DNA from: Candidatus Undinarchaeota archaeon
GTDB taxonomy: Archaea; Undinarchaeota; Undinarchaeia; Undinarchaeales; Naiadarchaeaceae
Direction of reading: 5' to 3'
Assembly (NCBI GenBank): GCA_964401205.1
Contig: CAYNXO010000001.1
Coordinates: forward strand, 1 to 42,367
Length of the DNA: 42,367 nucleotides
Part shown: positions 10,872 to 32,361 of the stretch, piece by piece
Position numbering within the stretch: position 1 is the first letter of the stretch
How the letters are laid out: the number at the start of each line of letters is the position of its first letter
Program-made: the position numbers and the translations under genes
The notes under the pieces: model-generated
What the model saw: only the letters and a program-made list of their open reading frames with translations
Told to the model about the DNA's origin: nothing
Databases searched by the model: none

Positions 10872-13800
10872 TTATTTAAATGTGCCTAATGTCTGCTGCT
10901 TTTCCCTGCCGAAAATTGAAACTATGCTTTTTTCAATAAATTCTATCTGCTGCCTTAAGTAAGGGGAAATGTTGAATTTCGTTGCCATTTCTTTTGTCGC
11001 GTTGAGATATTTTATAATAGTCCCCTGATGGACAGTAAGAACTATGTTTCCGCCGCACCTCAAACAAACACCGCTAAGCGGCGGCCTTCGGTATTTTGCA
11101 TTGCATTTTGTGCAGCGGACTTTTTGCCTTGAGAAGGTTCTTAAGTTTCCTTTCATGTCAGGGATAAAGTGCGTATTAATAATCCGCTCAGCAACGTCCC
11201 TTGCATCAACAGCCCTGATTTTCTCTGCAAGAGCAAGCTGCTTATCTAGTTTGTCTAGCATCTCACCTTCGGTGTAAGTGTTTGAGATTACGCCGTTGTT
11301 TATGTCAGAAACTTCGTGTGTGTAAGCCCATCCGTTAAAGGGGTCTTCTGCCTCAACTATGTCCTCAAATGTCTTGATTTCTATTTTTGAGGGGTCTGAA
11401 CCCTGTTCAGTAAGCTCGTAAAATTCAAGGGGGTATTCAGAAGAAATGTCAACATCATAAACTTCGTCATCAATTTCAAGCGGGTTTAATATTGTTGTAA
11501 TAACAAGCGGCGCATCCATTCTTCCGCCTCTTTTCTTAGGGATGAAGCATTTTGAGAAATTAATGAATGTGTCAAGCAGCAGTATTATTGAATCTTCGTC
11601 CCCGTCGCAGTCGCGCCGCTTTGCTGCGTGGAAAGCAGGGTTTGCAAAGCAGACTTTTGCGTCTGTAAATCCTAAAATTCTTCCGACCATACCGGTTGAA
11701 GTGTGGGGTGCGAGAGCAACTATTGAAGTTCCTACTAAATCATGTTTGTTCTTTGCATTGTAGTATCTTGGCAGGCCGTAATACTTCTCAAGTAAATCAT
11801 CCATAAAGTGGGTTGTGCGCAAAAGATAGTTTGAACAGGACTCCTCTTCGCCCCAGTCGCTAATTATTATGTCTTGGGGCTTTAATTCAAGAACTTGATT
11901 TTCGTTTTCAATTGGCTTTCCATTAATGTCGTTTGTATATCCGAGCTCTTTTATTTTTGAAATAGGAACTTTAATCTCGGCAGGAGTAAAATGCGAAATT
12001 GGGGCGTCTGTTGCGTCGAACCTGACCGTCCCATCCTTGAATGCATAAATATTGTGGCTTGCCCTGAGAATGCCTTTTTCAATTGGCTCAGGAACTTTGT
12101 CCTTTGAAGTCATGCCAAGGACGCCGACAAGTTTTTTAGGAAGGGATATGCCGATTTTTGCAGAAGCTGCATCGAGCATTTCCTTGAATTTTAATTCAAC
12201 CCTTTCAAAAGATTTTGTTTCTACATTGCAATGGGGGCATGTTGGAGAATTTATTTTTCTTTTGCACACAGGGCAGAAAGTCAGGAGGGTTGTTCTTGTA
12301 CCGCAGGCCGGGCAACAGGGAAATATTGTGTTCTTGCCGCATGCTGAGCAGAAAAAAGTTGAAACTTCAGGAGTTATTATGGGGCTGACATTTGCTGCTT
12401 TTATCAAATCCCTTACTCTTCCCTTTATAACGCCGGTGGGAAAAAGGGAGTGCGGCGGCGGAACCATTTTTCTTGGCTTTGCCTTTTCAGGCCTCCCCAT
12501 TCTTGCGCCCACATAAGTCGGGGCGCGATTTTTAATTTTAACCGGGGCGATTCTGTTTATTGCGTCCATTATGTTTGCCACTTTTGCGGATTTTAATTCA
12601 GAGAGAATTTCCTCGGGCCTTGCACTGTCAAGTGCTGTTGAAAAAAGAAGTGCTTTTGCATGATTGCTGTCAATTTTAATCTGCCCATTGCTGAGAGAGT
12701 GGAAAACGCAGAGCAGCTCAAGTATGTCTTTCAAATCTTTGTCAAATGGGATATCCATCCCTGGTTTGTATTTTAGTTTGCCAAGAATCTGGATTAACTT
12801 AACAAGCTGGATTATTGAAATGTTGTTCCAGAAGAATGTATATTGAGGGTGGAGTGGAATGTTAAGCTCTGTTGAAATTTTTGCTGCTGTTTCAAAATCA
12901 GGCACAACAAACGGCTTTGAAAGGTATTTTGAGTATGCAGAATGCTTTTTGCTGTCGTTCCCAATTTCTTTTTTTGCTTCCTGCGCCCACCACTCTTCAA
13001 CATAAGAGCTGGGGAAAAGTTTGTGGTTGTTTTCAATAAAGTCGCCGGCTGATATCAGCAAATCGCCAAGAGTTATTATTTTTTCAAGATTGTTTTTGTT
13101 TTCCTTTGCTTCCTCTAATGTGTTTATTTGTTTTAATTCGCCATTTTTCAAAACAACAGTCGGGCCGTTAATGCTGTCGCAAACAGTAACAATTCCTGCT
13201 TTCCCGGGGAATTCAAGCCGTATCTGGGTGCCGATTGCAATAAACCCGTCAAGCAGAACCATTGTTGCAGGATTTACTGCGACAGCAGAGTATCCTGTTG
13301 TTCTTGTCCTTCCGTATCGAAGAGTGAATCCGCCTTTTTTGGAAGGATGGGAAAAAACAGGCCTTCCTGCAGGAATTTCCTGCATGTATTTTTCATTACC
13401 AATATTTTCAACTGTTTTTTCCTCTGTAATGTCTTCAATAAATGCGTCTGCTTCTTTTGTTACATCAACAAGGCCTGCAACATCATTAACATCTTCTTCT
13501 GCAATATTCTGAACCCAGTTGTATTTTGTGTCAGCCGCGCTTTCAACTATCTCCTCCAACCGCTCCTGCGCATAAGGAATTTCCTTTGCCGCTTTCTTCA
13601 CAAGAAGCCCCTCAAGCCAGGACCATTTCAAATTGTATTTTTGCTCAAGGGGCTTCAGCTTCTTTACAAGCTTGGATGCTTTTTGCGCAATGCCTTCTGC
13701 AATAACAAGGCACATTCCCCCCCTTACTCTGTTTGTTTCAACTCTCCCTAAATTCCTGTAAGTGACAACTTCAAACTCCTCTGTTGGCTCTCCGTCAATG

Positions 13801-14435
13801 CAGACAGGAACATTTCTTACAATTGTTTCTATTTCTTCCTGTGTCGGCATGTATTGCAGGTGGACATTTCTTTTATACCAGAGTATCTCTTCTGCGCACC
13901 TGCCGATTTCGGCAGGGGTTGGCTGATATTTGCCAAGTTTAAGGTAGCGCCTTACATAGTCTGCAACAATAATTGAAAGCGCCTCTGCAGTACCGCCTGC
14001 TGCCCTTATCGGACCGGCATAATAAACAGAAAGGTATTCGCTTCCATCGGGATTTTTCTTAATTTTTACTTTTGCAATTCCTTCAATAGGCGCGCTTACT
14101 GCCCCTTGTGTAAGGTATGCAAGGCCTGCGCGGATTGCTTTTTCGCCTGCGATTTCACGGTTGTTATTTGTCTCTTTCAGCCCGTTTTCTATAACCTGTT
14201 CTGCTAGCTTGAATGCAACTTCTTCCTCTGTTTTGTATTGTTTTTGCAGGTTCCTTATTACAGGAGCAATTCCAGGGAGCTCAACAAGACCTTCTACTTT
14301 GTCTGCGATATCTTTCGCAATATAGGGCTCCGGAATTGTCGCAAAATCAAATCCTTTTGCCCGTGCTTGCTTGGCTATCTCAAACTCCTTGAAAACATTT
14401 TCCTCCATTAATTTATAGTATTCTTTTGTGTTCAT
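10872..14435 (-). CDS. polC: DNA polymerase II (PolD) large subunit DP2
   Basis: About 1187 aa with several Cys4 zinc clusters (CSACGK..CPACG, CPVC..CPHC, CTKC..CLRCGG), typical of DP2. The start is placed at MNTKEYYKLMEE (ATG 14435). The listed upstream 33 codons run through an intergenic repeat. Confidence 0.95.
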   Translation of the reverse strand: MNTKEYYKLMEENVFKEFEIAKQARAKGFDFATIPEPYIAKDIADKVEGLVELPGIAPVIRNLQKQYKTEEEVAFKLAEQVIENGLKETNNNREIAGEKAIRAGLAYLTQGAVSAPIEGIAKVKIKKNPDGSEYLSVYYAGPIRAAGGTAEALSIIVADYVRRYLKLGKYQPTPAEIGRCAEEILWYKRNVHLQYMPTQEEIETIVRNVPVCIDGEPTEEFEVVTYRNLGRVETNRVRGGMCLVIAEGIAQKASKLVKKLKPLEQKYNLKWSWLEGLLVKKAAKEIPYAQERLEEIVESAADTKYNWVQNIAEEDVNDVAGLVDVTKEADAFIEDITEEKTVENIGNEKYMQEIPAGRPVFSHPSKKGGFTLRYGRTRTTGYSAVAVNPATMVLLDGFIAIGTQIRLEFPGKAGIVTVCDSINGPTVVLKNGELKQINTLEEAKENKNNLEKIITLGDLLISAGDFIENNHKLFPSSYVEEWWAQEAKKEIGNDSKKHSAYSKYLSKPFVVPDFETAAKISTELNIPLHPQYTFFWNNISIIQLVKLIQILGKLKYKPGMDIPFDKDLKDILELLCVFHSLSNGQIKIDSNHAKALLFSTALDSARPEEILSELKSAKVANIMDAINRIAPVKIKNRAPTYVGARMGRPEKAKPRKMVPPPHSLFPTGVIKGRVRDLIKAANVSPIITPEVSTFFCSACGKNTIFPCCPACGTRTTLLTFCPVCKRKINSPTCPHCNVETKSFERVELKFKEMLDAASAKIGISLPKKLVGVLGMTSKDKVPEPIEKGILRASHNIYAFKDGTVRFDATDAPISHFTPAEIKVPISKIKELGYTNDINGKPIENENQVLELKPQDIIISDWGEEESCSNYLLRTTHFMDDLLEKYYGLPRYYNAKNKHDLVGTSIVALAPHTSTGMVGRILGFTDAKVCFANPAFHAAKRRDCDGDEDSIILLLDTFINFSKCFIPKKRGGRMDAPLVITTILNPLEIDDEVYDVDISSEYPLEFYELTEQGSDPSKIEIKTFEDIVEAEDPFNGWAYTHEVSDINNGVISNTYTEGEMLDKLDKQLALAEKIRAVDARDVAERIINTHFIPDMKGNLRTFSRQKVRCTKCNAKYRRPPLSGVCLRCGGNIVLTVHQGTIIKYLNATKEMATKFNISPYLRQQIEFIEKSIVSIFGREKQQTLGTFK

Positions 14436-14445
14436 TTTATGTTTA

Positions 14446-14619
14446 GGCGCATCACCACAAAGCGAGGGCATCATCCAGCTTGCAACAACTGGAGGGCGCA
14501 ACAACGCCTGCACAGCCCTCGCTTTGTGCCGCACTTGCTCTTTACTATAGGCACAATAGCCACTTTTACCAGGTTTTTTCGCCCTCTCGTAGCTTAGACT
14601 AGCTTAGTGCGAAAAAAAC
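14446..14619 (-). repeat. Family-1 structured element, copy A (DP1-DP2 intercistronic; carries a nested hairpin insertion)
   Basis: It shares GGCGCATCAC...CACTTGCT...CCAGGTTTTTT-stem-AAAAAA with 33226-33326 and the reverse complement of 40340-40439. The stem TTTTTTCGC (14574-14582) / GCGAAAAAA (14609-14617) covaries with TTTTTTGCC/GGCAAAAAA in the other copies. An extra perfect 14-bp stem pairs 14456-14469 with 14515-14528. Confidence 0.75.
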
Positions 14620-14621
14620 TG

Positions 14622-16088
14622 TTAAAATGCTAAAATCTGCACCTGCCTTGTTTTTAGATTTATGATTGGCATTCTGCCTGGGGTCGGCTCGTGGCCAAGG
14701 AATTTCTGGAAATCTGTGATGTCTTGCCAGGTTCCTGAATTTAGTAAAGTGGTCCCTCTGTAAGCCAGAACTCCGTTTGAATGGACGTGGCCTGTGTGAA
14801 AAATATCTATTCCTTCAGGGATAGCAAGCGGGTCTGAAGAGGTTTCTCCGGTTGTGACAATTCCTGATTCATAGGGGGGGCTTAAATGCCTTTTTTTCAA
14901 AAGGGCCAGCATGACTTTTTCAGGATGTTTGTAGCCATCTTTCAGGCTTGAAACATTTGGGACAATTGAATCAATAGAAGTCCCGTGATACAGCAGAACA
15001 TTCAGGCTAACATCATTTTCAAACGGTTTTATTTTTACAACACCCGGGGAGGAAATTGAAACTAAATTAGGGAGTTCATAAAGCCCGGGTGCAACGTCTT
15101 TGTCAATTGGCGGCTGTGGCTGAGCAATCCTTACATAATCGTGGTTGCCGGGGCAGATAATTATTTTAATATTTTCAGGTATTTTTGCAAAGCTTTTTGC
15201 AATTTCCCCGTATTGTTTGTAAATGTCGGTTATTTCCAGCTCTTTTTCCTGACCCGGATATATGCCAACCCCGTCAACTAAATCTCCTGCAACGAAAATA
15301 TATTTTAAATTCTCAAGGAATTTCTGCTGGTCTTCCCATAAAACAATGTCGCTTGATTTCCCGCGGATAAAATCAATCATGGAATTATACTTGTCTTCAA
15401 GGAATTTTTTGCTCCCTAAATGTATGTCACTGAGGAATGCTGCATAAATTGTTTCTTTTGTTTTTTTTTCAACACGGTTCACCGGCAAATCCGGGATTGT
15501 TATGTCATCCACAAACAAAACCCCTTTGCTTGCTGAGCCTGAAACTCCTATAACCTCATCATGCAGTATTTCATCTGCCTGAGCCATGAGCTCGCGTTTT
15601 GTGATGATTGCCTTTGCCGTGCCAGACATGTCCTCAAGCTCAAGAATTACATTTCCTTTTGGAGTCTTCTGCTTGGTTGAAACAATCCCAATAACGCTTA
15701 TTTTTTCGTTTGCTATTTTTTTTATGTTTGCGATTGACTGCAGGTTGGTGAGGCGCGGCTGGAGGTATTTTTTAAATTGGTTAAGTCTGCCAAGAAAATA
15801 TTTTGAAATGTCGTTTATATCGCCGATTGGCGGCATGTGCGTATGGTTTGCAACAATTTCTAAATCAATCAAACCAGTAATATTTTTTGGGGGGCGGGTT
15901 TTTTCTTTAACAAAATGTTCCGGGAGTATAATTAACTCCTTGTTTTGCTTTAGTTCTGAAATTAAATTATCGCACACCTCTACTGGATTTTTGCTTTCAA
16001 GAAGTAATTGCAGGGCTTCTTTTGAAATCTGAAGTTCGCTTGAAATTATTTTGCCAAGAACCTTGGCCTTTAGACTTTGGCTTTGCAT
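14622..16088 (-). CDS. polB: DNA polymerase II (PolD) small subunit DP1
   Basis: 488 aa with an OB-fold region and calcineurin-like phosphoesterase motifs (GDLVDG, GNHD, GHVH). Confidence 0.9.
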   Translation of the reverse strand: MQSQSLKAKVLGKIISSELQISKEALQLLLESKNPVEVCDNLISELKQNKELIILPEHFVKEKTRPPKNITGLIDLEIVANHTHMPPIGDINDISKYFLGRLNQFKKYLQPRLTNLQSIANIKKIANEKISVIGIVSTKQKTPKGNVILELEDMSGTAKAIITKRELMAQADEILHDEVIGVSGSASKGVLFVDDITIPDLPVNRVEKKTKETIYAAFLSDIHLGSKKFLEDKYNSMIDFIRGKSSDIVLWEDQQKFLENLKYIFVAGDLVDGVGIYPGQEKELEITDIYKQYGEIAKSFAKIPENIKIIICPGNHDYVRIAQPQPPIDKDVAPGLYELPNLVSISSPGVVKIKPFENDVSLNVLLYHGTSIDSIVPNVSSLKDGYKHPEKVMLALLKKRHLSPPYESGIVTTGETSSDPLAIPEGIDIFHTGHVHSNGVLAYRGTTLLNSGTWQDITDFQKFLGHEPTPGRMPIINLKTRQVQILAF

Positions 16089-16133
16089 TTTTTTGTTGGG
16101 GAATTAATCCACCACTAATTGTTTTTTGCTGGG

Positions 16134-17327
16134 CTATGCCAGTTCACCAGATAGTATTTCTTTGCTTTTTTCAAGAACAACCCCTGAGATATCAAGGTTT
16201 ATTGTCCGCGTTCTCCCGTATCGGCCGCGTGAGACTAGTGTCGCCCCGATTAGGCCGAGCATTTCAAGCTCAGATATTAAATCTGAGACGCGCCTTTGCG
16301 TCAATGGCTCGAGCTTGAATTTCCTGCTGAGTTTTGTATATACTTCGTAAATTTCACCAGTAGAAATAATTTCCGTATTCTGGTCTTTCAAGTAAATTAT
16401 GCTTGAAAGCACTAGTTGAGACTGCCTTGGCTGTGTTTTAATGATTTCGACAACTCGGTCAATGTCTAGTTTCTTTTGTGCAATATCAACATGGTTTGCC
16501 TGGACTTTTTCATCTCCCTGGCGCTCTGCAATCTCAACAGCCACCCTCAGCAAGTCAAGTGCACGCCTTGCGTCCCCGTGTTCCTGCGCTGCAAGCGCTG
16601 CGCATTTTTCAATTACGCCTTCCCCTAGGATTTCTGGCCTTAGTGCAATTGCTGCCCTTTTTGATAGTATTTCTTTTAGCTGGACTGCATTATATGGTGG
16701 GAAAACAAGCTCCTCTTCTGACAAAGAGGATTTTATCCTAGGATCAAGACTGCTTGTAAAAGCCAAATCGTTTGTAATACCGAGTATGCTTACACGCGTG
16801 TTTTTCAGCTCTGTGTTTATCCTTGTCAAGTCATAAAGGATTGTTGGGTCTGATAAGGAATCTATTTCATCAAGTATTATTATACAGATGCTGTTTGCAT
16901 CTGCAAGGGCTAAAAGGAATTTTTTGTAAACTTCCTCTGTTGGAAGGCCTGTGGCTGGCACTTGCTTGCCTAATTGCAAAAGGAAATTCGCCAAAAGCCG
17001 GTAAGGTGTGTTTATTTTATTTATTTTGCAATTCAGGTAAATTGTTTTTACATTAACGCCGCGCTCTATTGCTTTCTTCCCAAGTTCCTGGCAAACATAC
17101 TTACTCACGAGTGTCTTGCCTGTCCCGGTTTTGCCATATACAAAAACGTTTGAGGGCTTCTCCCCCCTTAAGGAATTTACAAGAATTGACGCTAATTGTC
17201 TTATTTGTTCCTCTCTGTGCGGGACTGTTTCTGGTGTGTAGGTTTCTTGCAATGCTTCTTTAGCAAAAAAATGTGGCTGCCTGCCTAAGAAAGAGTCAAA
17301 CAAATCATTCAGTGCTTTTTGCGCCAT
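16134..17327 (-). CDS. cdc6: Orc1/Cdc6 replication initiator
   Basis: AAA+ Walker A (YGKTGTGKT), Walker B (IIILDEID) and a C-terminal winged helix. It lies adjacent to an ORB-containing spacer. Confidence 0.95.
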   Translation of the reverse strand: MAQKALNDLFDSFLGRQPHFFAKEALQETYTPETVPHREEQIRQLASILVNSLRGEKPSNVFVYGKTGTGKTLVSKYVCQELGKKAIERGVNVKTIYLNCKINKINTPYRLLANFLLQLGKQVPATGLPTEEVYKKFLLALADANSICIIILDEIDSLSDPTILYDLTRINTELKNTRVSILGITNDLAFTSSLDPRIKSSLSEEELVFPPYNAVQLKEILSKRAAIALRPEILGEGVIEKCAALAAQEHGDARRALDLLRVAVEIAERQGDEKVQANHVDIAQKKLDIDRVVEIIKTQPRQSQLVLSSIIYLKDQNTEIISTGEIYEVYTKLSRKFKLEPLTQRRVSDLISELEMLGLIGATLVSRGRYGRTRTINLDISGVVLEKSKEILSGELA

Positions 17328-25546: not shown

Positions 25547-26413
25547 CTATTTCAACAAGGCGTACCCAATTGTTTTGTAAGCCAATTTCGCTGCCACAAA
25601 ATCATATGCAGGCATTTTTGTTATCGGGCTTAGCTCAGTCAAGTCAAAGCCAACAACATTCCTTTCTTTTGCAACTTTTCTTACAAGTGTAATTAAATCA
25701 TACCAGTCTAATCCTCCGGGCTCAGGAGTTCCAGTAGCTGGCATTAACCCAGAATCAAGCACATCAATATCAAAGCTGACGTAAACATTCCCCTTTAAAT
25801 TCCCGACAATTTCATCGCAATTATAATTCCCTCTTTTAAATTCATGCGCCCAGTAAAATTTTAATTTGTTTTTTTCAATTAATTCAGCTTCTTCACCACA
25901 AAGGCTTCTGCAGCCAACATGCACAAAACTTTTATTTACATCATAAATTCTTTTCAATGTACAAGCATGGCTGTATTTTGTGCCATCATATTCTTCCCTT
26001 AAATCCCCATGCGCATCAAAATACAGAACTGACAAATTTTTAAAAGATTTTGAATACGCTCTTGCGGGCCCAATTGAAATTGAATGCTCCCCGCCCAAAG
26101 TGACAACAAATTTTCCACTTTCAATCTGCCTTTTAGTTTCTTTTTCAAGAAAATCAGCCACATCTTCCGGCTTTTTCGGCAATTTATAAGGTTTCAAAGT
26201 AGAAATTCCAATTTTTTCAGCAATATTTGCCTTTATTTCCTCGTCATAAAGCTCAAGATTTTTAGATGCCTCTATAATTGCACGAGGCGCTTTTGAAGTT
26301 CCCTTTCCATAAGTTACAGTTCCTTCATAAGGTGCAGACGCAATTGCAACTTTTGCCTTATTGTAATCACTAAAAAACTTTTCAATTCCAAGAAAATTGT
26401 CAGGCACTTTCAT
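25547..26413 (-). CDS. speB: Agmatinase (arginase/ureohydrolase family)
   Basis: Arginase-family metal-binding motifs (GGEHS, DAHGD, SFDIDVLD). Confidence 0.9.
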   Translation of the reverse strand: MKVPDNFLGIEKFFSDYNKAKVAIASAPYEGTVTYGKGTSKAPRAIIEASKNLELYDEEIKANIAEKIGISTLKPYKLPKKPEDVADFLEKETKRQIESGKFVVTLGGEHSISIGPARAYSKSFKNLSVLYFDAHGDLREEYDGTKYSHACTLKRIYDVNKSFVHVGCRSLCGEEAELIEKNKLKFYWAHEFKRGNYNCDEIVGNLKGNVYVSFDIDVLDSGLMPATGTPEPGGLDWYDLITLVRKVAKERNVVGFDLTELSPITKMPAYDFVAAKLAYKTIGYALLK

Positions 26414-27439
26414 TTATTTAAAAAGCTTGTTGAATTCCTTTGATCTCCTGTTCTTCCAGCTTCCTTTGTGGTATGCATAGCTTGCCAATATTGGGAAAAT
26501 AACTGTCGCCTCTCCAAAAACCATCTGCGTTGTTCCCTCAGCAATTTTCCCCCACGAGTGCGCTTCCTTTAAAGTACTTCCAGACAGCGCGCCGTCCCTT
26601 TCATCCGCAACAGTGATTTGTATTGCATACTTATGCATTGGCTTTTCTTTTCCAAGAACATCTGTCGCAACAACAACATCCTGCGCGAAATTTTTAGGAA
26701 CCCCTCCGCCAATCATTAACAATCCAGTGTCTTTTGCAGCAAGCTTTATTTTTGTGAGCTCAAGAAAATCCTTTGCAGAATCAATTGAAACTGTTTTTTC
26801 TCCTGGTTTTTTGTTGAACTGATGATGAATCAATCCAAAGCCTGCGCTTGAATCTGAAAACGCAGGGCAGAATATCGGGATGTTTTTCTTGTATGCTGCA
26901 TAAACAAAAGATTCCTTGTTCTTTCCTTTTGTCTCAAGGTATTTTCCCATTTCATAGATAAATTCCCGCGAAGAATAAGGGCGCGGCTCTAAATTTTCTG
27001 CAATCTCTGCAATTGTCATATCACAAACGCGCAATTCATCCTCATCTATGTAATGGTCATAAATCCTGTCAATGTGAAACTTGCATAATTCATCATCATC
27101 AACCATTGGTGTGCCTTGATAGTGCCTGAACCCCAACCCTTCAAAAAAATCCTGGTCAACAACAATTGCGCCTGTTGAAACAATTGCATCAACCATGTCA
27201 TTCATAACCAATTCATAAATCACTTTTTTAAGCCCTGCACTTACAAGCGAGCCAGCTAAACACAAAATAACGGCGCATTCCTTGTCTTTTAGCATATTAT
27301 CATAAATTTTCGCGGCATTTGCAAGATTCCTCGCCTGGAAAGCAGTTTTTGAAAAACCCTCAACTAATTCAACGGCATTTATTTTTTTGATGTCTATGTG
27401 CTCTATTTTTTCCTTTAGATAGTCCTTTTTCCCTGCCAT
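26414..27439 (-). CDS. dys: Deoxyhypusine synthase
   Basis: 341 aa with strong DHS-like sequence throughout (AGSLVSAGL, GGGVPKN, ...SWGK). Its stop abuts the speB start. Confidence 0.9.
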   Translation of the reverse strand: MAGKKDYLKEKIEHIDIKKINAVELVEGFSKTAFQARNLANAAKIYDNMLKDKECAVILCLAGSLVSAGLKKVIYELVMNDMVDAIVSTGAIVVDQDFFEGLGFRHYQGTPMVDDDELCKFHIDRIYDHYIDEDELRVCDMTIAEIAENLEPRPYSSREFIYEMGKYLETKGKNKESFVYAAYKKNIPIFCPAFSDSSAGFGLIHHQFNKKPGEKTVSIDSAKDFLELTKIKLAAKDTGLLMIGGGVPKNFAQDVVVATDVLGKEKPMHKYAIQITVADERDGALSGSTLKEAHSWGKIAEGTTQMVFGEATVIFPILASYAYHKGSWKNRRSKEFNKLFK

Positions 27440-27461
27440 TTATTCTCCCGAAAATAATAAT

Positions 27462-28070
27462 TTACCTTAAAAATCCCAAAACAGGCACTTCGTGGTTTAC
27501 GAAACAAAGCGAAACAAGCGCTGTTCCATGCTTTTTCTTTGGTATGAAGCTTTTTACATAAAGTTCCATGTCCTTCAAATTATATTTTTGTTTTATGTCA
27601 GCATCATAAAGCTCGTTTAAGCTTGCCAGCAGAGTTTTCTTTGCGTCTTCCTCTGTTCCGTGATCAGAATATTCGCAGACAATCCCTCCTGCTTTTTCTC
27701 CAGTCATTTTGTCATACAGCCAGCCGTAAACAACTCCTGCGGTTGCCCTGACTCCTTTTGTTGAATGGCAGCAGGCCATTATAGTTTCCATCACACTGCC
27801 GAAATCCAAGTGCTTTGGCCTGTCAATTTTCCTGGAAATAGGAGCTAAAACAGATGAATAAATCATTATGTTCTGCTTTTCTATTCCAGCATCCCTTAAA
27901 GCCACATGGTAGGAACCTGCATGAACTGTTATGTCGCTTTCTCCAACTCCGGATGTTATGAAATAATCCTTTGGAACGCGGTTTCCAAGAACAAATTTTG
28001 GAGATGTTTTTAAGTTCTTTTGTTGCAACTGCAAAAGATTCTGCGCTAGAAAAGAAATTTGTTTTTTCAT
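27462..28070 (-). CDS. pdaD: Pyruvoyl-dependent arginine decarboxylase
   Basis: VPKDYFITSGVGES motif and an IYSSVLAP self-cleavage Ser-Ser site. Confidence 0.9.
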   Translation of the reverse strand: MKKQISFLAQNLLQLQQKNLKTSPKFVLGNRVPKDYFITSGVGESDITVHAGSYHVALRDAGIEKQNIMIYSSVLAPISRKIDRPKHLDFGSVMETIMACCHSTKGVRATAGVVYGWLYDKMTGEKAGGIVCEYSDHGTEEDAKKTLLASLNELYDADIKQKYNLKDMELYVKSFIPKKKHGTALVSLCFVNHEVPVLGFLR

Positions 28071-28716: not shown

Positions 28717-28939
28717 ATTTTTTCCAAATATTTTCGTGTGCTATTTTTCTACTTTACTGTAGTTTTTCTGATATTTAAATACAGTCGAATTCCCCAATCT
28801 TAACCACTCTTTAAAAAGGGCGGAAAGAAAATTGAAATGATCAAGAACCTTCTGAAAAGGCACCACGGGATTGATGATGTGATTGTGCGATAAGTTTATA
28901 TATAGTACAAAAGAGTTTCTAGGAATATTGGTGGTGGAA

Positions 28940-29914
28940 ATGGTTAAGACTAGTAGATTAGCCATAGTATTTGTATTATCATTTGTTTTACTATCAGTTG
29001 GAGTTTTCGCACAGCCAAAAGAAATTGCGATTCAGGGGCGGCTTTTAGATTCTCAAAACGGGCCAATCACATCAAATGTTAGCATGAATTTTTCACTCTA
29101 CAATGTTTCAACAGGCGGGGCAGTGCTTTATACTGAAAACCATCCGATTGTAGAAGTCAAAAATGGTGTTTGGAATGCAAAACTGGGATCAATAACACCT
29201 TTAGAGTTGCCTTTTGATGAACAGTATTATTTAGAGACTGCAGTTAACAATGAAATATTAAGCCCGCGAATTGCTTTAACATCTGCACCTTATTCATTCG
29301 CGCTAAGTAAATTTATTAATCTCTTCACATTAGGCGGAATTCCGCTTCTTTTCACAGATTTATTAAATGGGAGAATTGGCATAGGAACTACAAATCCATT
29401 GGCGCAATTGCATGTTATTGGGGATATAATAACCACTGGTAAAGTGGACGCAGGCAACCTCACAACTGCAGGGAATATAAACGCAAATGGTTATCTCATT
29501 AGAAGGATTGCGCGGGTGCATGGGGTAAACTGGAATGATGGTACTGATAACGGTCCAATTTCTACACGTGTACTAACATTTGTAAAGACGCAGAACGATA
29601 CTGGCATTAGAGCAAGCTATGAGGACAATTTGCGCGCTACAGACCCTTCAGGGATTACGTCCTGCAGATGGGAAATCAAGTTTAATGGCAATTCATGCAC
29701 AAACCCCGGGCCAATAGCATTTGACCAATACTCCGGCAACACAGGGGATAATGATCACCGCGGAAAAGCAAACTTTGGAACGTGTTTTGGTTTACCAACT
29801 GGAACTTATACAATACAGGTTTATGTGGGCCCAACTCCTGGTTTCGCAACAGCCGACTGCTATACTGGCTGGTCAGGCCAATACTGGGCGCTAGAAGCTG
29901 AGGAAGTACGCTAA
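28940..29914 (+). CDS. Secreted fibre-like protein: signal peptide, tail-fibre-like N-domain, CTHRC1-like C-terminal domain
   Basis: Start placed at MVKTSRLAIVFVLSF..VFAQP (signal peptide). The N-domain reads IQGRLLDSQNGPI...LYTENH...YYLETAVNNEILSPRIALTSAPYS. Neck motif GRIGIGTTNPLAQLHVIGD. The C-terminus reads CRWEIKFNGNSCTNPGPI..HRG..GTC.G...G...IQVYVG..D.YTGW....LEAEEV. TATA TTTATATA lies at 28895-28902. Confidence 0.8.
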   Translation: MVKTSRLAIVFVLSFVLLSVGVFAQPKEIAIQGRLLDSQNGPITSNVSMNFSLYNVSTGGAVLYTENHPIVEVKNGVWNAKLGSITPLELPFDEQYYLETAVNNEILSPRIALTSAPYSFALSKFINLFTLGGIPLLFTDLLNGRIGIGTTNPLAQLHVIGDIITTGKVDAGNLTTAGNINANGYLIRRIARVHGVNWNDGTDNGPISTRVLTFVKTQNDTGIRASYEDNLRATDPSGITSCRWEIKFNGNSCTNPGPIAFDQYSGNTGDNDHRGKANFGTCFGLPTGTYTIQVYVGPTPGFATADCYTGWSGQYWALEAEEVR

Positions 29915-29928
29915 CTAATTTCATAAAA

Positions 29929-31047
29929 ATGAAAAAATTCTATGAAAAGATACTATTGTTTTCTTTCTTAATCGTATTTGCATTGCTACCTTTTCAGACA
30001 TACGCAGCGCCAACTTCAAACTCCAATTATTCAGCAGATATAATTGCAAGCTCCGGGACTTCTGGGTATATCACAACGTTAGGAAACAAAATAGAAATAA
30101 TTTCTGGCCAGCCAGCAATTGGGGAAGCCAGCAGTGCGAATTATAAACTACAAGTAGGGCATGCTTATATTTTACCTGCTACCTCTCCTCTCCTGATAGT
30201 TCTTGCGAGGGAAGTATGTGGCAACAATCTTGGCTACAGCCAGGGAGATTATAACCGGAGAAACTGGAACAAATCCCAGAATTCATCAGACCCATGCAAC
30301 TGGTATGCAAGGTCGCATATCCACGACTTAAATACAACTATTAACCAAACTGCAGCAATTTATGTGGTATTTATGCCAGGATACTATGAAAGATGCGTTT
30401 CGCCTGTTTTAATCTCAGTTTCTCCTGATAATTCAAATTGGGCTTTAATTGGAAACATAAACACATCTTCACATGACACGGATGGAAATCCGGCTTACCC
30501 TCAGTTCTGGGCAAGCAGGAATTTTACAATGCTAAATGTCACTCCTCCCTTCAGGTTTGTGAATATAAGCATCCCAAACTGCTTCAATGACTGGAGCAAG
30601 GTAATTATTTATGATACAGCAGCTCCGCTTTCGCTGAAACCGCCATTTGAATCAATATTTTTCTTTGCAGGAGAAAAGATAGTTAAACCGATAGTAAAGC
30701 CACCTTCCTCTGGTTCTGGGGACAGTGGAAGCGGTAACACAGGTGGCGGTTCTGGTGGCGGAGGCGGAGGAACAAGCAGCGCCGCACAAAAAACAACTAA
30801 TTTAGAAGTAAAAACATCGCAAGCAACACAAAATAACAATCAGCAAGAAGCAACAAGAACTTTAGCAAGTCCAGCACAAAAAGAGGAAAAAACCCCTCTA
30901 CACTCAAAGCCGGATAACAATTTAGTTGCCGGTTCTTTGGCCACTGGCCTTACAGCATTGAAACAGAAACCAACTTTATTGAAAGCAATAATAAGTATCA
31001 TTGTTATAAGCATAATTGTGGCACTAGCTTACTTCAAAAAGAAATAA
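29929..31047 (+). CDS. Surface protein with signal peptide, Gly/Ser linker and C-terminal TM anchor
   Basis: N-terminal hydrophobic signal (..LPFQTYAAP), a GSGDSGSGNTGGGSGGGGGGTSS linker and a terminal LLKAIISIIVISIIVALAYFKKK. Confidence 0.7.
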   Translation: MKKFYEKILLFSFLIVFALLPFQTYAAPTSNSNYSADIIASSGTSGYITTLGNKIEIISGQPAIGEASSANYKLQVGHAYILPATSPLLIVLAREVCGNNLGYSQGDYNRRNWNKSQNSSDPCNWYARSHIHDLNTTINQTAAIYVVFMPGYYERCVSPVLISVSPDNSNWALIGNINTSSHDTDGNPAYPQFWASRNFTMLNVTPPFRFVNISIPNCFNDWSKVIIYDTAAPLSLKPPFESIFFFAGEKIVKPIVKPPSSGSGDSGSGNTGGGSGGGGGGTSSAAQKTTNLEVKTSQATQNNNQQEATRTLASPAQKEEKTPLHSKPDNNLVAGSLATGLTALKQKPTLLKAIISIIVISIIVALAYFKKK

Positions 31048-31192
31048 TTCGCTTTTTTAAAGAGATAGGTAGCTCTAATCCCCGTCACATAGTGAGATTT
31101 AAAAAGTTCCTGAAAGATAAGAATGTAACAAAAATTGCAGAAGTACGAAAAGAGATAGTCAATTACAGTAGCAAATTGCCATATAAGTTTAT

Positions 31193-31282
31193 GCGGCGAT
31201 AGTCTAGCCTGGTAGGACAAAAGCTTCCCAAACCTAAAAACGGAAACAGCTTTAGGCCCGAGTTCAAATCTCGGTCGCCGCA
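31193..31282 (+). tRNA. tRNA-Gly(CCC) with 17-nt intron at the canonical 37/38 position
   Basis: Manual cloverleaf: acceptor GCGGCGA/TCGCCGC with discriminator A; D arm GTCT/GGAC; anticodon stem AAAGC/GCTTT; loop TTCCCA|A with anticodon at 31227-31229; intron at about 31231-31247; T arm CCGAG-TTCAAAT-CTCGG. C2-G71 and G3-C70 fit Gly identity. Confidence 0.85.
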
Positions 31283-31357
31283 CTCTTCTTTTAGTAAATA
31301 GACCAAGGGTGCGCAACAATTAAATAAATAAACAAATACGTTTATCTTTGCATTGGC

Positions 31358-31645
31358 ATGAAAAAAGAACCAGTTTCTAATTTGGAGAATTTGTTTTTCA
31401 GGGAAAAGCCAGCCCGGCTTTTAATTCATATTAAAAAAGAACCCCGGCCTTATATAACAATTCTTGCAAAAAGGATTGATGCAACTTATGCACACACAGT
31501 AAAGATTTTGGCTAAGATGCATTCCCACGGCCTTGTTAGTTTCAGCAAGTCAGGCAGGATAAAATATGTTACTCTTACTTCTTCAGGGCTTGAGCTTGCA
31601 GCACATTTTGAAGAATTAATTTTCGAGAAAATGGGGCTGAAATGA
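31358..31645 (+). CDS. Small winged-helix (ArsR/MarR-like) DNA-binding protein
   Basis: 95 aa. YITILAKRIDATYAHTVKILAKMHSHGLVSF..GRIKYVTLT is an HTH plus wing pattern. Confidence 0.6.
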   Translation: MKKEPVSNLENLFFREKPARLLIHIKKEPRPYITILAKRIDATYAHTVKILAKMHSHGLVSFSKSGRIKYVTLTSSGLELAAHFEELIFEKMGLK

Positions 31646-32361
31646 AAAGCCAATTTGCCTTTGATGACAATCAGCGCCTGTTTATGAATTTTGTAGAAAG
31701 CACAGAATGGGGAATACTCGGCCATGAATTTTTAAAATATGGCATAGAACAATGTAAAATAAGTGAAAACCAAAGAGAGAACTTCAGGATTGGCGTTGAT
31801 AAATCCCTAAAAAATTTAAAAAAGAAGTATACTAAGACTCCTCCCTGGCGAGAAATCGCTATTTCCCTTCTGCAATACGGCAAAGGATCAAAATTTCTTG
31901 ACAGAGGATCAGGCATTGCATATAGAAACAGGCTCAGAAACGCAAATTTGCAAAACGCCACAAGAATTTTAGCGCAAAACATGATTTTTGCCTATGCCAG
32001 GCTTTTCATAGAAATTGAAGAAGATATCAAGGAACTTATTTACTCAAAAAAGGTAAAGCCTGCCTGCGGCTATTCTGTCTTAAAATTCCTTCGGGATTCT
32101 AAAATGCCGGCTTCAAAAGTCGGCATAATGAACATGTTCAGGCAAGCGCAAAAAGAGATCGCAAAAAAGGAAGGAATAATTGATTTTGAAAGACACGTTC
32201 TTGGGAGGCTTGTGCAAAGAGGTTTTATTGTAGATACAAAAGAAGGATATGTCATTCACCCAATGATGAGGAAAGCATTTGAGCATGCAGATGTGGTAAG
32301 GAAAGATGTTTTAAAATGGAAATACCGGGATAACTGGTTTCTGTCGCCCAACAAAAAGTAA
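31642..32361 (+). CDS. Hypothetical protein, possible C-terminal wHTH
   Basis: Its start overlaps the preceding stop (ATGA). C-terminal pattern VLKFLRDSKMPASKVG..LGRLVQRGFIVDTKEGYVIHP. Confidence 0.5.
   Translation: MKSQFAFDDNQRLFMNFVESTEWGILGHEFLKYGIEQCKISENQRENFRIGVDKSLKNLKKKYTKTPPWREIAISLLQYGKGSKFLDRGSGIAYRNRLRNANLQNATRILAQNMIFAYARLFIEIEEDIKELIYSKKVKPACGYSVLKFLRDSKMPASKVGIMNMFRQAQKEIAKKEGIIDFERHVLGRLVQRGFIVDTKEGYVIHPMMRKAFEHADVVRKDVLKWKYRDNWFLSPNKK

What the first reader, a model, noticed from the sequence alone, without database searches (positions are those of the whole stretch)
29498..29914. Archaeal secreted fibre protein ends in a domain resembling the metazoan CTHRC1 C-terminal globular domain
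The last ~138 residues align by eye with my recollection of human CTHRC1 over four blocks:
- TFVKTQNDTGIRASYEDNLRA vs [21 protein letters not shown]
- SCRWEIKFNGNSCTNPGPIAFDQY vs [25 protein letters not shown]
- NDHRGKANFGTCFGLPTGTYTIQVYVG vs [27 protein letters not shown]
- ADCYTGWSGQYWALEAEEV vs GDASTGWNSVSRIIIEEL

In animals this domain follows a collagen triple helix. Here it follows a signal peptide, a tail-fibre-like N-domain (IQGRL..YLE..SPR..S.PY) and a GIGTTNP..L.V.G neck motif that I associate with trimeric phage- or adhesin-type fibres. The same 'trimeric stalk plus CTHRC head' architecture may therefore exist in an archaeon.

The next gene encodes a second anchored surface protein. 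The pair may form a cell-cell or host-attachment module, which would be relevant if the organism is an episymbiont.
Basis: partly seen in the sequence, partly recalled or inferred. Interest (0 to 1): 0.7.

Follow-up and report, generated by a model that had tools for sequence, protein, structure and literature searches.

The report
Archaeal surface fibre with CTHRC1-like head
A tiny symbiont-type (DPANN) archaeon encodes a short secreted fibre whose tip belongs to the same protein-domain family as the head of the animal protein CTHRC1 and whose base resembles the prey-grabbing fibres of the predatory bacterium Bdellovibrio; this is a plausible host-attachment device, but it is built from parts already known in bacteria.

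Summary
The gene at 28940-29914 (+) encodes a 324-aa protein. Its last ~140 residues match Pfam CTHRC1_C (PF25815) at E 2e-14, 54 bits against a cut-off of 27.

The contig is archaeal (PolD, Orc1, Hef, A-ATPase). Its closest named relatives are Naiadarchaeales/Undinarchaeota, a DPANN lineage.

The modelled head (pLDDT 89) has a TNF/C1q-type jelly-roll fold, like trimeric lectins and phage fibre tips.

New here: the N-terminal domain is a distant homologue of the N-domain of Bdellovibrio "mosaic adhesive trimer" (MAT) fibres (NCBIfam NF053851, E 1e-9, below its naming cut-off). The neck carries one MAT-type GxxGIGTxxP motif.

The best reading is a miniature MAT-like adhesin with a CTHRC1_C tip, probably trimeric and displayed on the cell surface.

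Novelty is limited. CTHRC1_C domains in bacteria, some on collagen stalks, were published in 2020, and the family has about 1,100 clusters. I found no report of an archaeal member or of an archaeal MAT-like fibre. A second, probably archaeal, locus carries three fibre paralogues with different C-terminal regions.

Trimerisation, adhesion and partnership with the neighbouring gene were not tested.

The parts
28895..28904 (+). TATA-like box (TTTATATATA) about 36-45 nt upstream of the start codon; a candidate archaeal promoter
   Evidence: Read directly from the sequence. Function is inferred, not tested.
28930..28937 (+). GGTGGTGG Shine-Dalgarno-like run just before ATG 28940
   Evidence: Read directly from the sequence. 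It supports ATG 28940 over TTG 28883 as the start; the NCBI protein P0001 is 324 aa.
28940..29914 (+). Fibre gene: 324-aa secreted protein (stop at 29912-29914)
   Evidence: ORF list; identical to P0001 from NCBI on a 42,367-bp contig; translation.
28940..29011 (+). Sec-type signal peptide, residues 1-24 (MVKTSRLAIVFVLSFVLLSVGVFA | QPKE)
   Evidence: The sequence shows a basic n-region, a hydrophobic core and a V-F-A cleavage motif. AF2 gives a helix at 6-18. No signal-peptide predictor was run.
29012..29299 (+). N-terminal beta-rich domain (residues ~25-120), a distant homologue of the Bdellovibrio MAT-fibre N-domain; the presumed cell-proximal end
   Evidence: NCBIfam NF053851 Bdello_MAT_N hits residues 16-105 at E 1.1e-9, 38.3 bits, cut-off 60. 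Ten of 28 aligned relatives also hit it. AF2 gives pLDDT 84-96 over the residue blocks 31-110, all-beta. The same domain heads an S74-terminated 'tail fiber domain-containing protein' of Ignavibacteriales, P0033.
29300..29491 (+). Neck or short stalk (residues 121-184); low-confidence as a monomer
   Evidence: AF2 pLDDT is below 50 for residues 116-158, as expected for a segment that folds only in an oligomer (inference).
29369..29422 (+). GRIGIGTTNPLAQLHVIG motif (residues 144-161), of the MAT/tail-fibre repeat type
   Evidence: It aligns to GRVGVGTTAPTSALHVIG of Bd3182 (PDB 8OJN chain C) at E 0.12. phrog_9942 'tail fiber protein' matches residues 127-168 at E 0.003. The G.[IV]G[IV]G[TI]..P motif lies upstream of the head in 37 of 137 single-domain family members.
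29492..29911 (+). C-terminal head (residues 185-324): CTHRC1_C family, TNF/C1q-like jelly roll, four conserved cysteines (242, 253, 282, 307), ending EAEEVR at the C-terminus
   Evidence: Pfam PF25815; hhalign and BLASTP to human CTHRC1. AF2 gives pLDDT 89.4 and pTM 0.86. Foldseek PDB and BFVD hits are TNF-like trimers and fibre tips.
29929..31047 (+). Adjacent gene, 14 bp downstream: 372-aa protein with an N-terminal signal peptide, nine N-x-S/T sequons, a Gly/Ser-rich linker and a C-terminal transmembrane anchor (LLKAIISIIVISIIVALAYFKKK); a possible operon partner
   Evidence: ORF and sequence. No significant Pfam, PHROG or NCBIfam hit. No homologue in any fetched locus. Partnership with the fibre is inference only.

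Best explanation
The gene encodes a short secreted fibre built from three modules, in this order:
1. A Sec signal peptide.
2. A beta-rich N-terminal domain homologous to the cell-proximal N-domain of Bdellovibrio mosaic adhesive trimer (MAT) fibres.
3. A short neck with one MAT/tail-fibre-type GxxGIGTxxP motif.
4. A C-terminal globular head of the CTHRC1_C sequence family with a TNF/C1q-type jelly-roll fold.

Shown: the domain identities, the fold, the archaeal (DPANN, Undinarchaeota-like) genomic setting, and the fact that this head almost always sits at the extreme C-terminus of varied stalks.

Inferred:
- Three chains assemble into a homotrimer, with the head trimer at the distal tip.
- The N-domain docks the fibre on the archaeon's own surface, possibly on the co-transcribed membrane-anchored neighbour.
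- The head binds a surface ligand, most likely a glycan in a pocket between protomers as in TNF-like lectins, on another cell. For a DPANN archaeon that cell would be its host.
- The modules were probably assembled by domain shuffling and inter-domain gene transfer from bacteria, where almost all other members are found.
For: - Head family: Pfam CTHRC1_C at E 2.1e-14; hhalign to human CTHRC1 at 99%, E 5e-18.
- Head fold: confident model (pLDDT 89.4). The best PDB matches are trimeric TNF-like proteins: Chlamydia Pgp3 C-domain (E 4e-6, TM 0.62), lambda gpJ fibre tip, the BC2L-C and PLTL lectins, 4-1BBL, Cbln1/C1ql1 and TNF-alpha. There are 458 viral matches at E<=1e-3, including phage tail fibres and collagen-like giant-virus proteins.
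- Fibre base: NCBIfam Bdello_MAT_N at E 1.1e-9. The neck motif aligns to Bd3182.
- Published architecture: MAT fibres are a signal peptide, a conserved N-domain, a trimeric stalk and swappable tips that include TNF-like lectin tips (PMC10769870).
- Tip position: 134 of 137 single-domain family members end within 5 residues of the C-terminus. Their stalks carry collagen G-X-Y repeats (15), GIGT motifs (37) or this N-domain (12).
- Tip swapping: locus L007/L008 is probably archaeal (topA_arch E 1.5e-44 against topA_bact 3.5e-13). It carries three paralogues with the same N-domain but different C-terminal parts.
- Extracellular hallmarks: signal peptide, four conserved cysteines, five sequons.
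- Native gene: archaeal housekeeping flanks, GC 0.417 against 0.40-0.45 for neighbouring genes, and a TATA-like box.
- Lineage: PolD is 68% identical to that of Ca. Naiadarchaeum.
Against: - Trimerisation, surface display and ligand binding were not tested.
- The MAT N-domain hit (38 bits) is below NCBI's naming cut-off (60).
- There is only one GIGT motif. The match to the solved Bd3182 structure is weak (E 0.12).
- The stalk is far shorter than in Bdellovibrio MATs (~1,000 aa).
- An archaeal envelope has no outer membrane, so the docking partner must differ.
- Some family members carry 2-16 tandem copies of the domain. The domain is therefore not always a terminal trimer cap.
- The neighbour gene is not conserved next to other family members.
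- The domain tree is unresolved (bootstrap <=5%). The direction of transfer is inferred only from the mostly bacterial distribution.
Confidence: 0.6

Rival explanations
1. It is a component of the archaeon's own envelope or matrix. It might be an S-layer-associated spike, or a fibre for self-aggregation or biofilm. On this reading it does not recognise a host.
For: The evidence for secretion and fibre architecture is the same. C1q/TNF-headed collagen-like proteins such as Bacillus BxpB/BclA are structural exosporium parts; BxpB 8d02 appears among the fold matches. Nothing here identifies a ligand.
Against: The closest characterised relatives of both ends are adhesins or lectins: MAT fibres, BC2L-C and PLTL. 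Tip diversification among paralogues is more typical of recognition proteins than of structural ones.
Confidence: 0.2
2. It is a soluble secreted effector or ligand. Examples would be a TNF-like or Pgp3-like virulence factor, or a CTHRC1-like signalling glycoprotein released into the medium or onto the host.
For: The protein has no membrane anchor of its own. The top fold match, Chlamydia Pgp3, is a secreted trimeric virulence factor.
Against: The N-domain is homologous to the surface-proximal domain of displayed MAT fibres. The Wnt/PCP partners of animal CTHRC1 do not exist in prokaryotes (established knowledge).
Confidence: 0.1
3. It is the receptor-binding fibre of an integrated archaeal virus or other mobile element inserted next to the tRNA gene.
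For: A tRNA lies 146 bp downstream of the neighbour gene, followed by a small winged-helix protein. The fold is common in phage fibre tips. There is a weak PHROG tail-fibre hit.
Against: No other virus-like gene is present; the flanks are arginine decarboxylase, deoxyhypusine synthase, RNA cyclase and SerRS. No match appeared in IMG/VR by pattern scan, in GenBank phages by tblastn or in plasmids. Base composition matches the contig.
Confidence: 0.05
4. It is a bacterial gene placed on an archaeal contig by mis-assembly or binning contamination.
For: Nearly all other family members with known context are bacterial. The head is 61-67% identical to theirs.
Against: The gene lies inside one 42-kb contig with archaeal genes on both sides. 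GC (0.417) and GC3 (0.335) are close to those of neighbouring genes. An archaeal-type TATA box lies upstream. A second, independent locus with an archaeal-type topoisomerase I carries the same kind of gene and was recovered from three different samples.
Confidence: 0.03

Closest known systems
CTHRC1 C-terminal domain family (Pfam PF25815): metazoan CTHRC1 and the bacterial and dinoflagellate homologues described by Leclere et al. 2020 (PMC7058181)
   Same: The sequence is a family member (54 bits against a cut-off of 27; 31% identity to human). The domain sits at the extreme C-terminus and is preceded by a presumably trimerising stalk. Three of its four conserved cysteines align with cysteines of human CTHRC1, and the acidic C-terminal strand is shared (EAEEV against IIEEL).
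   Different: There is no collagen G-X-Y repeat here; the stalk is a MAT-type N-domain plus neck. The host is an archaeon. It cannot share the Wnt/PCP or TGF-beta roles of animal CTHRC1. Several close bacterial relatives (P0003, P0020, P0024) do have collagen stalks.
Bdellovibrio bacteriovorus mosaic adhesive trimer (MAT) fibres, especially the TNF-like-tipped Bd2439 and Bd2734 (Caulton et al. 2024, PMC10769870)
   Same: Both have a signal peptide, a homologous beta-rich N-domain directly after it, GxxGIGTxxP-type motifs and an independently folding C-terminal tip of TNF-like fold. There is evidence of tip swapping among paralogues.
   Different: This protein is 324 aa against ~1,000 aa, with one motif instead of a long beta-helix. 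The tip belongs to the CTHRC1_C sequence family, which is not among the six solved MAT tips. The N-domain score is below the family's curated cut-off. The organism is an archaeon without an outer membrane.
Trimeric TNF/C1q-fold lectins and heads: Burkholderia BC2L-C N-domain, Photorhabdus PLTL, Chlamydia Pgp3 C-domain, C1q/Cbln1, the Bacillus exosporium protein BxpB (the BclA relative cited in PMC7058181), and the lambda gpJ tip
   Same: They share the fold (Foldseek probability 1.0, TM-score normalised to query 0.55-0.63). They play a similar role as the distal recognition head of a trimer.
   Different: Sequence identity is only 8-15%. The Pfam TNF and C1q models do not hit. Ligand pockets cannot be transferred at this distance.

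Membership tests
CTHRC1_C domain family (Pfam PF25815) | Score above Pfam's gathering cut-off over most of the model | tested here: met
   54.4 bits against 27; profile positions 13-130 of 137; E 2.1e-14.
CTHRC1_C domain family (Pfam PF25815) | Direct alignability to a metazoan CTHRC1 | tested here: met
   hhalign 99%, E 5.3e-18; BLASTP E 7e-12.
CTHRC1 protein (metazoan orthologue group) | Short collagen G-X-Y triple-helix repeat preceding the C-domain | tested here: not met
   No Collagen Pfam hit and no G-X-Y run in the 324-aa protein. It is a domain-family member, not a CTHRC1 orthologue.
Mosaic adhesive trimer (MAT) fibre family (NCBIfam NF053851; Caulton 2024) | Conserved beta-rich N-domain immediately after the signal peptide | tested here: inconclusive
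   NF053851 hits residues 16-105 at E 1.1e-9, but 38.3 bits is below the curated 60. Ten of 28 relatives also hit, best E 7.4e-10. Homology is likely; subfamily membership was not reached.
Mosaic adhesive trimer (MAT) fibre family | Trimeric beta-helical stalk with recurring capping-loop motifs | tested here: inconclusive
   One motif (residues 144-161) aligns to Bd3182 8OJN at E 0.12. The neck is only ~64 residues and was modelled poorly as a monomer.
Mosaic adhesive trimer (MAT) fibre family | Variable, independently folding C-terminal tip; tips exchanged between paralogues | tested here: met
   The head folds confidently on its own. In L007/L008, paralogues with the same N-domain have different C-terminal parts.
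Mosaic adhesive trimer (MAT) fibre family | Homotrimer displayed on the cell surface | not testable with these tools
   No multimer prediction or experiment was available.
TNF/C1q structural superfamily | Ten-strand jelly-roll fold matching solved TNF/C1q-like trimers | tested here: met
   Foldseek PDB gave 121 hits at E<=1e-3. The top hits were Pgp3, BC2L-C-Nt, PLTL, 4-1BBL, Cbln1, C1ql1 and TNF-alpha.
TNF/C1q structural superfamily | Sequence-level match to the Pfam TNF or C1q models | tested here: not met
   Only PF25815 was reported at E<=1.

The most novel reading that the evidence does not exclude
MAT-type mosaic fibres with exchangeable tips may be a shared cell-capture apparatus of small predatory or episymbiotic prokaryotes in both domains: Bdellovibrio, CPR Saccharibacteria and DPANN archaea. 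On this reading they spread by inter-domain gene transfer. The CTHRC1_C-tipped fibre would then be the host-recognition adhesin of an uncultured Undinarchaeota-like archaeon. The head of animal CTHRC1 would descend from such a prokaryotic fibre-tip lectin.
Probability: 0.2. Interest if true: 0.6.

Novelty: new member of a known kind. Interest (0 to 1): 0.38.

Why it matters
How DPANN archaea recognise and hold on to their hosts is largely unknown, and Undinarchaeota have no cultured representative. A small, easily expressed fibre with a lectin-like head gives a concrete reagent. Labelled head trimers could be used to fish for or stain the partner cell in environmental samples.

The finding also extends two known families across the domain boundary. 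One is the CTHRC1_C head, so far discussed for animals, protists and bacteria. The other is the Bdellovibrio MAT fibre scaffold. It adds a data point to the question of where the head of animal CTHRC1 came from.

It does not reveal a new fold, a new domain or a new mechanism.

Tried and rejected
- **PDB sequence searches.** The full protein, the head profile and the N-domain profile found no solved CTHRC1 or N-domain structure. They gave only a weak Bd3182 neck match and chance-level hits.
- **N-domain profile search of the 5.8-billion-protein set.** It returned only nine unnamed short hits because of the word-index limit, and was uninformative.
- **Viral origin.** The IMG/VR pattern scan found no relative. 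tblastn against GenBank phages and PLSDB plasmids found nothing.
- **Contig look-up.** The exact-sequence look-up for the window protein found nothing on record, and cluster look-ups gave no names for family members. Lineage was therefore taken from PolD homologues instead.
- **Neighbour-gene partnership.** The neighbour has no family hit. Against a signal-peptide protein in L008 it shows only signal-peptide-level similarity. It has no homologue in any fetched locus. I rejected the idea of a conserved pair.
- **Domain phylogeny.** In an NJ tree the window's head grouped with collagen-stalked and bacterial-context members. Bootstrap support was <=5%, so I do not use the topology.
- **Second copy.** No other copy of either domain lies in the window.

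Full report
**What is there.** The finding lies in an ORF listed as 28883..29914 (+). The biologically likely start is ATG 28940. It follows a GGTGGTGG run and lies about 36-45 nt downstream of a TTTATATATA box. It gives exactly the 324-aa protein that NCBI holds for this 42,367-bp contig (P0001).

**Check of the observation.**
- Pfam's CTHRC1_C model (PF25815) matches residues 197-312 at E 2.1e-14, 54.4 bits against a gathering cut-off of 27. It is the only Pfam family reported at E<=1.
- I built an alignment of the last 140 residues of 27 homologues (A1) and compared it with human CTHRC1. The result was hhalign probability 99%, E 5.3e-18, 31% identity over 120 columns.
- Plain BLASTP of the window protein against human CTHRC1 gives E 7e-12.
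Its only validation is that it scores 225 bits over the full PF25815 model and also hits Collagen.

**Organism.** The window encodes A-type ATP synthase subunits I, C, A and B, both subunits of the archaea-specific DNA polymerase D, Orc1/Cdc6 and Hef. It also encodes pyruvoyl arginine decarboxylase, deoxyhypusine synthase, agmatinase, RNA cyclase and SerRS. The PolD large subunit is 66-73% identical to unnamed metagenomic proteins. It is 68% identical to that of Candidatus Naiadarchaeum limnaeum / Naiadarchaeales and 51-57% identical to Undinarchaeales proteins. The contig therefore comes from an Undinarchaeota-like DPANN archaeon. A 90-nt tRNA that Rfam finds and ARAGORN misses fits an intron-bearing archaeal tRNA.

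The fibre gene is not compositionally foreign. Its GC is 0.417 and GC3 0.335, against 0.40-0.45 and 0.36-0.45 for housekeeping genes. It is flanked by housekeeping genes, so a provirus or a mis-assembly is unlikely.

**Anatomy of the protein.**
- Residues 1-24 form a Sec-type signal peptide, judged from the sequence.
- Residues ~25-120 form a confidently modelled all-beta domain, with pLDDT 84-96 over the residue blocks 31-110.
- Residues 121-184 are poorly modelled as a monomer. They contain GRIGIGTTNPLAQLHVIG.
- Residues 185-324 are the head. Modelled alone with A1, it reaches pLDDT 89.4 and pTM 0.86 with nine beta-strands.
- All four cysteines (242, 253, 282, 307) lie in the head, at nearly invariant family positions. 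This suggests two disulfides, which is an inference.

**The head.** Foldseek against the PDB gives 121 matches at E<=1e-3. The best are trimeric TNF/C1q-fold proteins:
- Chlamydia Pgp3 C-domain (E 4e-6, TM 0.62)
- the lambda gpJ central-fibre tip
- the TNF-like lectins BC2L-C-Nt and PLTL
- 4-1BBL, Cbln1, C1ql1 and TNF-alpha

Against predicted viral structures there are 458 matches at E<=1e-3. They include phage tail fibres, collagen-like giant-virus proteins and a 'C1q domain-containing protein' of a haloarchaeal virus. Sequence identity is only 7-18%, so this is similarity of fold and role. It agrees with the published prediction that the CTHRC1 C-domain is C1q-like (PMC7058181). No solved structure of a CTHRC1 domain was detectable by sequence.

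**The base and neck.** NCBIfam model NF053851, 'Bdello_MAT_N, mosaic adhesive trimer family chimeric fiber protein', hits residues 16-105 at E 1.1e-9. The score is 38.3 bits, below its curated 60-bit cut-off. Ten of 28 aligned relatives hit it too.

The neck motif aligns with GRVGVGTTAPTSALHVIG of PDB 8OJN at E 0.12. That entry is Bdellovibrio Bd3182 residues 632-922 (PMC10769870). The neck also weakly matches a tail-fibre PHROG.

Caulton et al. describe MAT fibres as follows. All have a conserved ~130-aa beta-rich domain right after the signal peptide. They have a trimeric beta-helix with recurring capping-loop motifs. Their C-terminal tips fold independently and are exchangeable; the tips include S74 chaperones, new sandwiches, a C-type lectin and two TNF-like lectin domains. 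The fibres are displayed on the predator's surface. The window protein has the same order of parts in miniature.

**The family.** A profile search of 1.84 billion cluster representatives finds 1,127 proteins at E<=1e-3, 685 at E<=1e-10 and 211 at E<=1e-30. Among the members in hand:
- 137 have one copy of the domain, and in 134 of these it ends within five residues of the C-terminus.
- Upstream regions carry GIGT-type motifs (37), collagen G-X-Y runs (15) or this N-domain (12).
- 33 proteins carry 2-16 tandem copies.

Where context could be read, members are bacterial:
- Saccharibacteria, Gammaproteobacteria, Myxococcota and other proteobacteria among GTDB species representatives
- a 2.36-Mb contig with bacterial-type EF-Tu
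- a 1,294-aa fibre next to DNA polymerase III alpha
- loci with HflK/HflC or ComEA

One exception is locus L007/L008/L009, recovered from three different samples. Its topoisomerase I fragment fits the archaeal model far better than the bacterial one (E 1.5e-44 against 3.5e-13), and its GC is 33-37%. It holds a fibre with this N-domain and a CTHRC1_C head (P0004). The next gene is a paralogue that shares the N-domain and stalk but has a different head. A third paralogue has a repetitive stalk. That is tip swapping of the kind described for MAT fibres, probably in a second archaeon.

**Origin.** The window's head is most similar (61-67% identity) to heads of proteins in bacterial-looking contexts, two of which have collagen stalks. 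The P0004 head is closer to CPR and proteobacterial heads than to the window's. An NJ tree places the window's head among those proteins, but bootstrap support is <=5%. I infer bacterial-to-archaeal transfer only from the distribution and give it moderate weight.

**Mechanism proposed.**
- Shown: a secreted protein with a MAT-like N-domain, a short neck and a TNF/C1q-fold CTHRC1_C head, natively encoded by a DPANN archaeon.
- Inferred: homotrimerisation; anchoring through the N-domain; binding of a ligand on another cell by the head, most likely a glycan at protomer interfaces as in Bd2439, BC2L-C and PLTL.

The gene 14 bp downstream (29929-31047) encodes a protein with a signal peptide, nine sequons, a Gly/Ser-rich linker and a C-terminal transmembrane anchor. 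It could be the docking partner. It has no recognisable family and no counterpart next to other family members. The 'pair' therefore remains a local guess.

**Novelty.** CTHRC1 C-domains in bacterial metagenomes and dinoflagellates, including bacterial proteins with collagen repeats, were reported in 2020. That paper does not mention archaea. Pfam has the family, and the protein database already tags this protein with it. Literature searches for CTHRC1 with archaea and for mosaic adhesive fibres with archaea found nothing relevant. The new elements are the archaeal (DPANN) host, the link between the CTHRC1_C head and the MAT fibre scaffold, and the very small size. I class it as a new member of known kinds and of moderate interest, chiefly as a candidate host-attachment protein for an uncultured symbiont lineage.

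Noticed in passing
window 31193-31282 (+): Rfam finds a 90-nt tRNA (56.9 bits) that ARAGORN misses. By my reading of the sequence it is tRNA-Gly(CCC) with a ~17-nt intron after anticodon-loop position 37, as is typical of archaea. The 96-aa ORF on the opposite strand (31029-31319) overlapping it is probably spurious.
   Followed up: partly
L007 1267-5539; L008 1235-4105 (same locus also in L009): This low-GC (33-37%) metagenomic locus has an intein-containing, archaeal-type topoisomerase I. It carries three fibre paralogues that share the MAT-like N-domain: one with a CTHRC1_C head, one with an unrelated head, and one with a repetitive Asn/Ala-rich stalk. It also carries small proteins with dockerin-like C-terminal repeats. 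It looks like a tip-swapping fibre cluster in a second small-genome archaeon.
   Followed up: partly
proteins P0043-P0046 (family members, not in the window): Some CTHRC1_C family proteins carry many tandem copies of the domain. The profile search reported 8 matched stretches in the 1,071-aa P0043, and 15-19 in P0045 and P0046 (2,666 and 2,451 aa, both on contigs longer than 100 kb). This does not fit a simple 'terminal trimer cap' role, and I have not seen it described.
   Followed up: no
window 10872-17327 and the GC-skew profile: Orc1/Cdc6 (16134-17327, -) lies directly beside the small and large subunits of DNA polymerase D. Cumulative GC skew peaks at about 10-12 kb and falls afterwards. 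A replication origin may lie in this neighbourhood.
   Followed up: no
window 25547-28070 (-): Three genes form a compact polyamine/hypusine cluster immediately upstream of the fibre gene, on the opposite strand: agmatinase/arginase family (25547-26413), deoxyhypusine synthase (26414-27439) and pyruvoyl-dependent arginine decarboxylase (27462-28070).
   Followed up: no
L012 1574-2686 (Saccharibacteria contig CAYSWC010000027.1): A CPR (Saccharibacteria) bacterium, from a lineage known for episymbiosis, encodes a 370-aa protein (P0015) with several GxVGIGTxxP motifs and a CTHRC1_C head. It has no detectable MAT N-domain. The same head therefore occurs in small-celled symbiont lineages of both domains.
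   Followed up: partly
window 31358-32361 (+): Just downstream of the tRNA lie a 95-aa winged-helix protein (weak HVO_A0114/MarR-type hits) and an overlapping 239-aa protein with no family. Their function and any link to the fibre genes are unknown.
   Followed up: no
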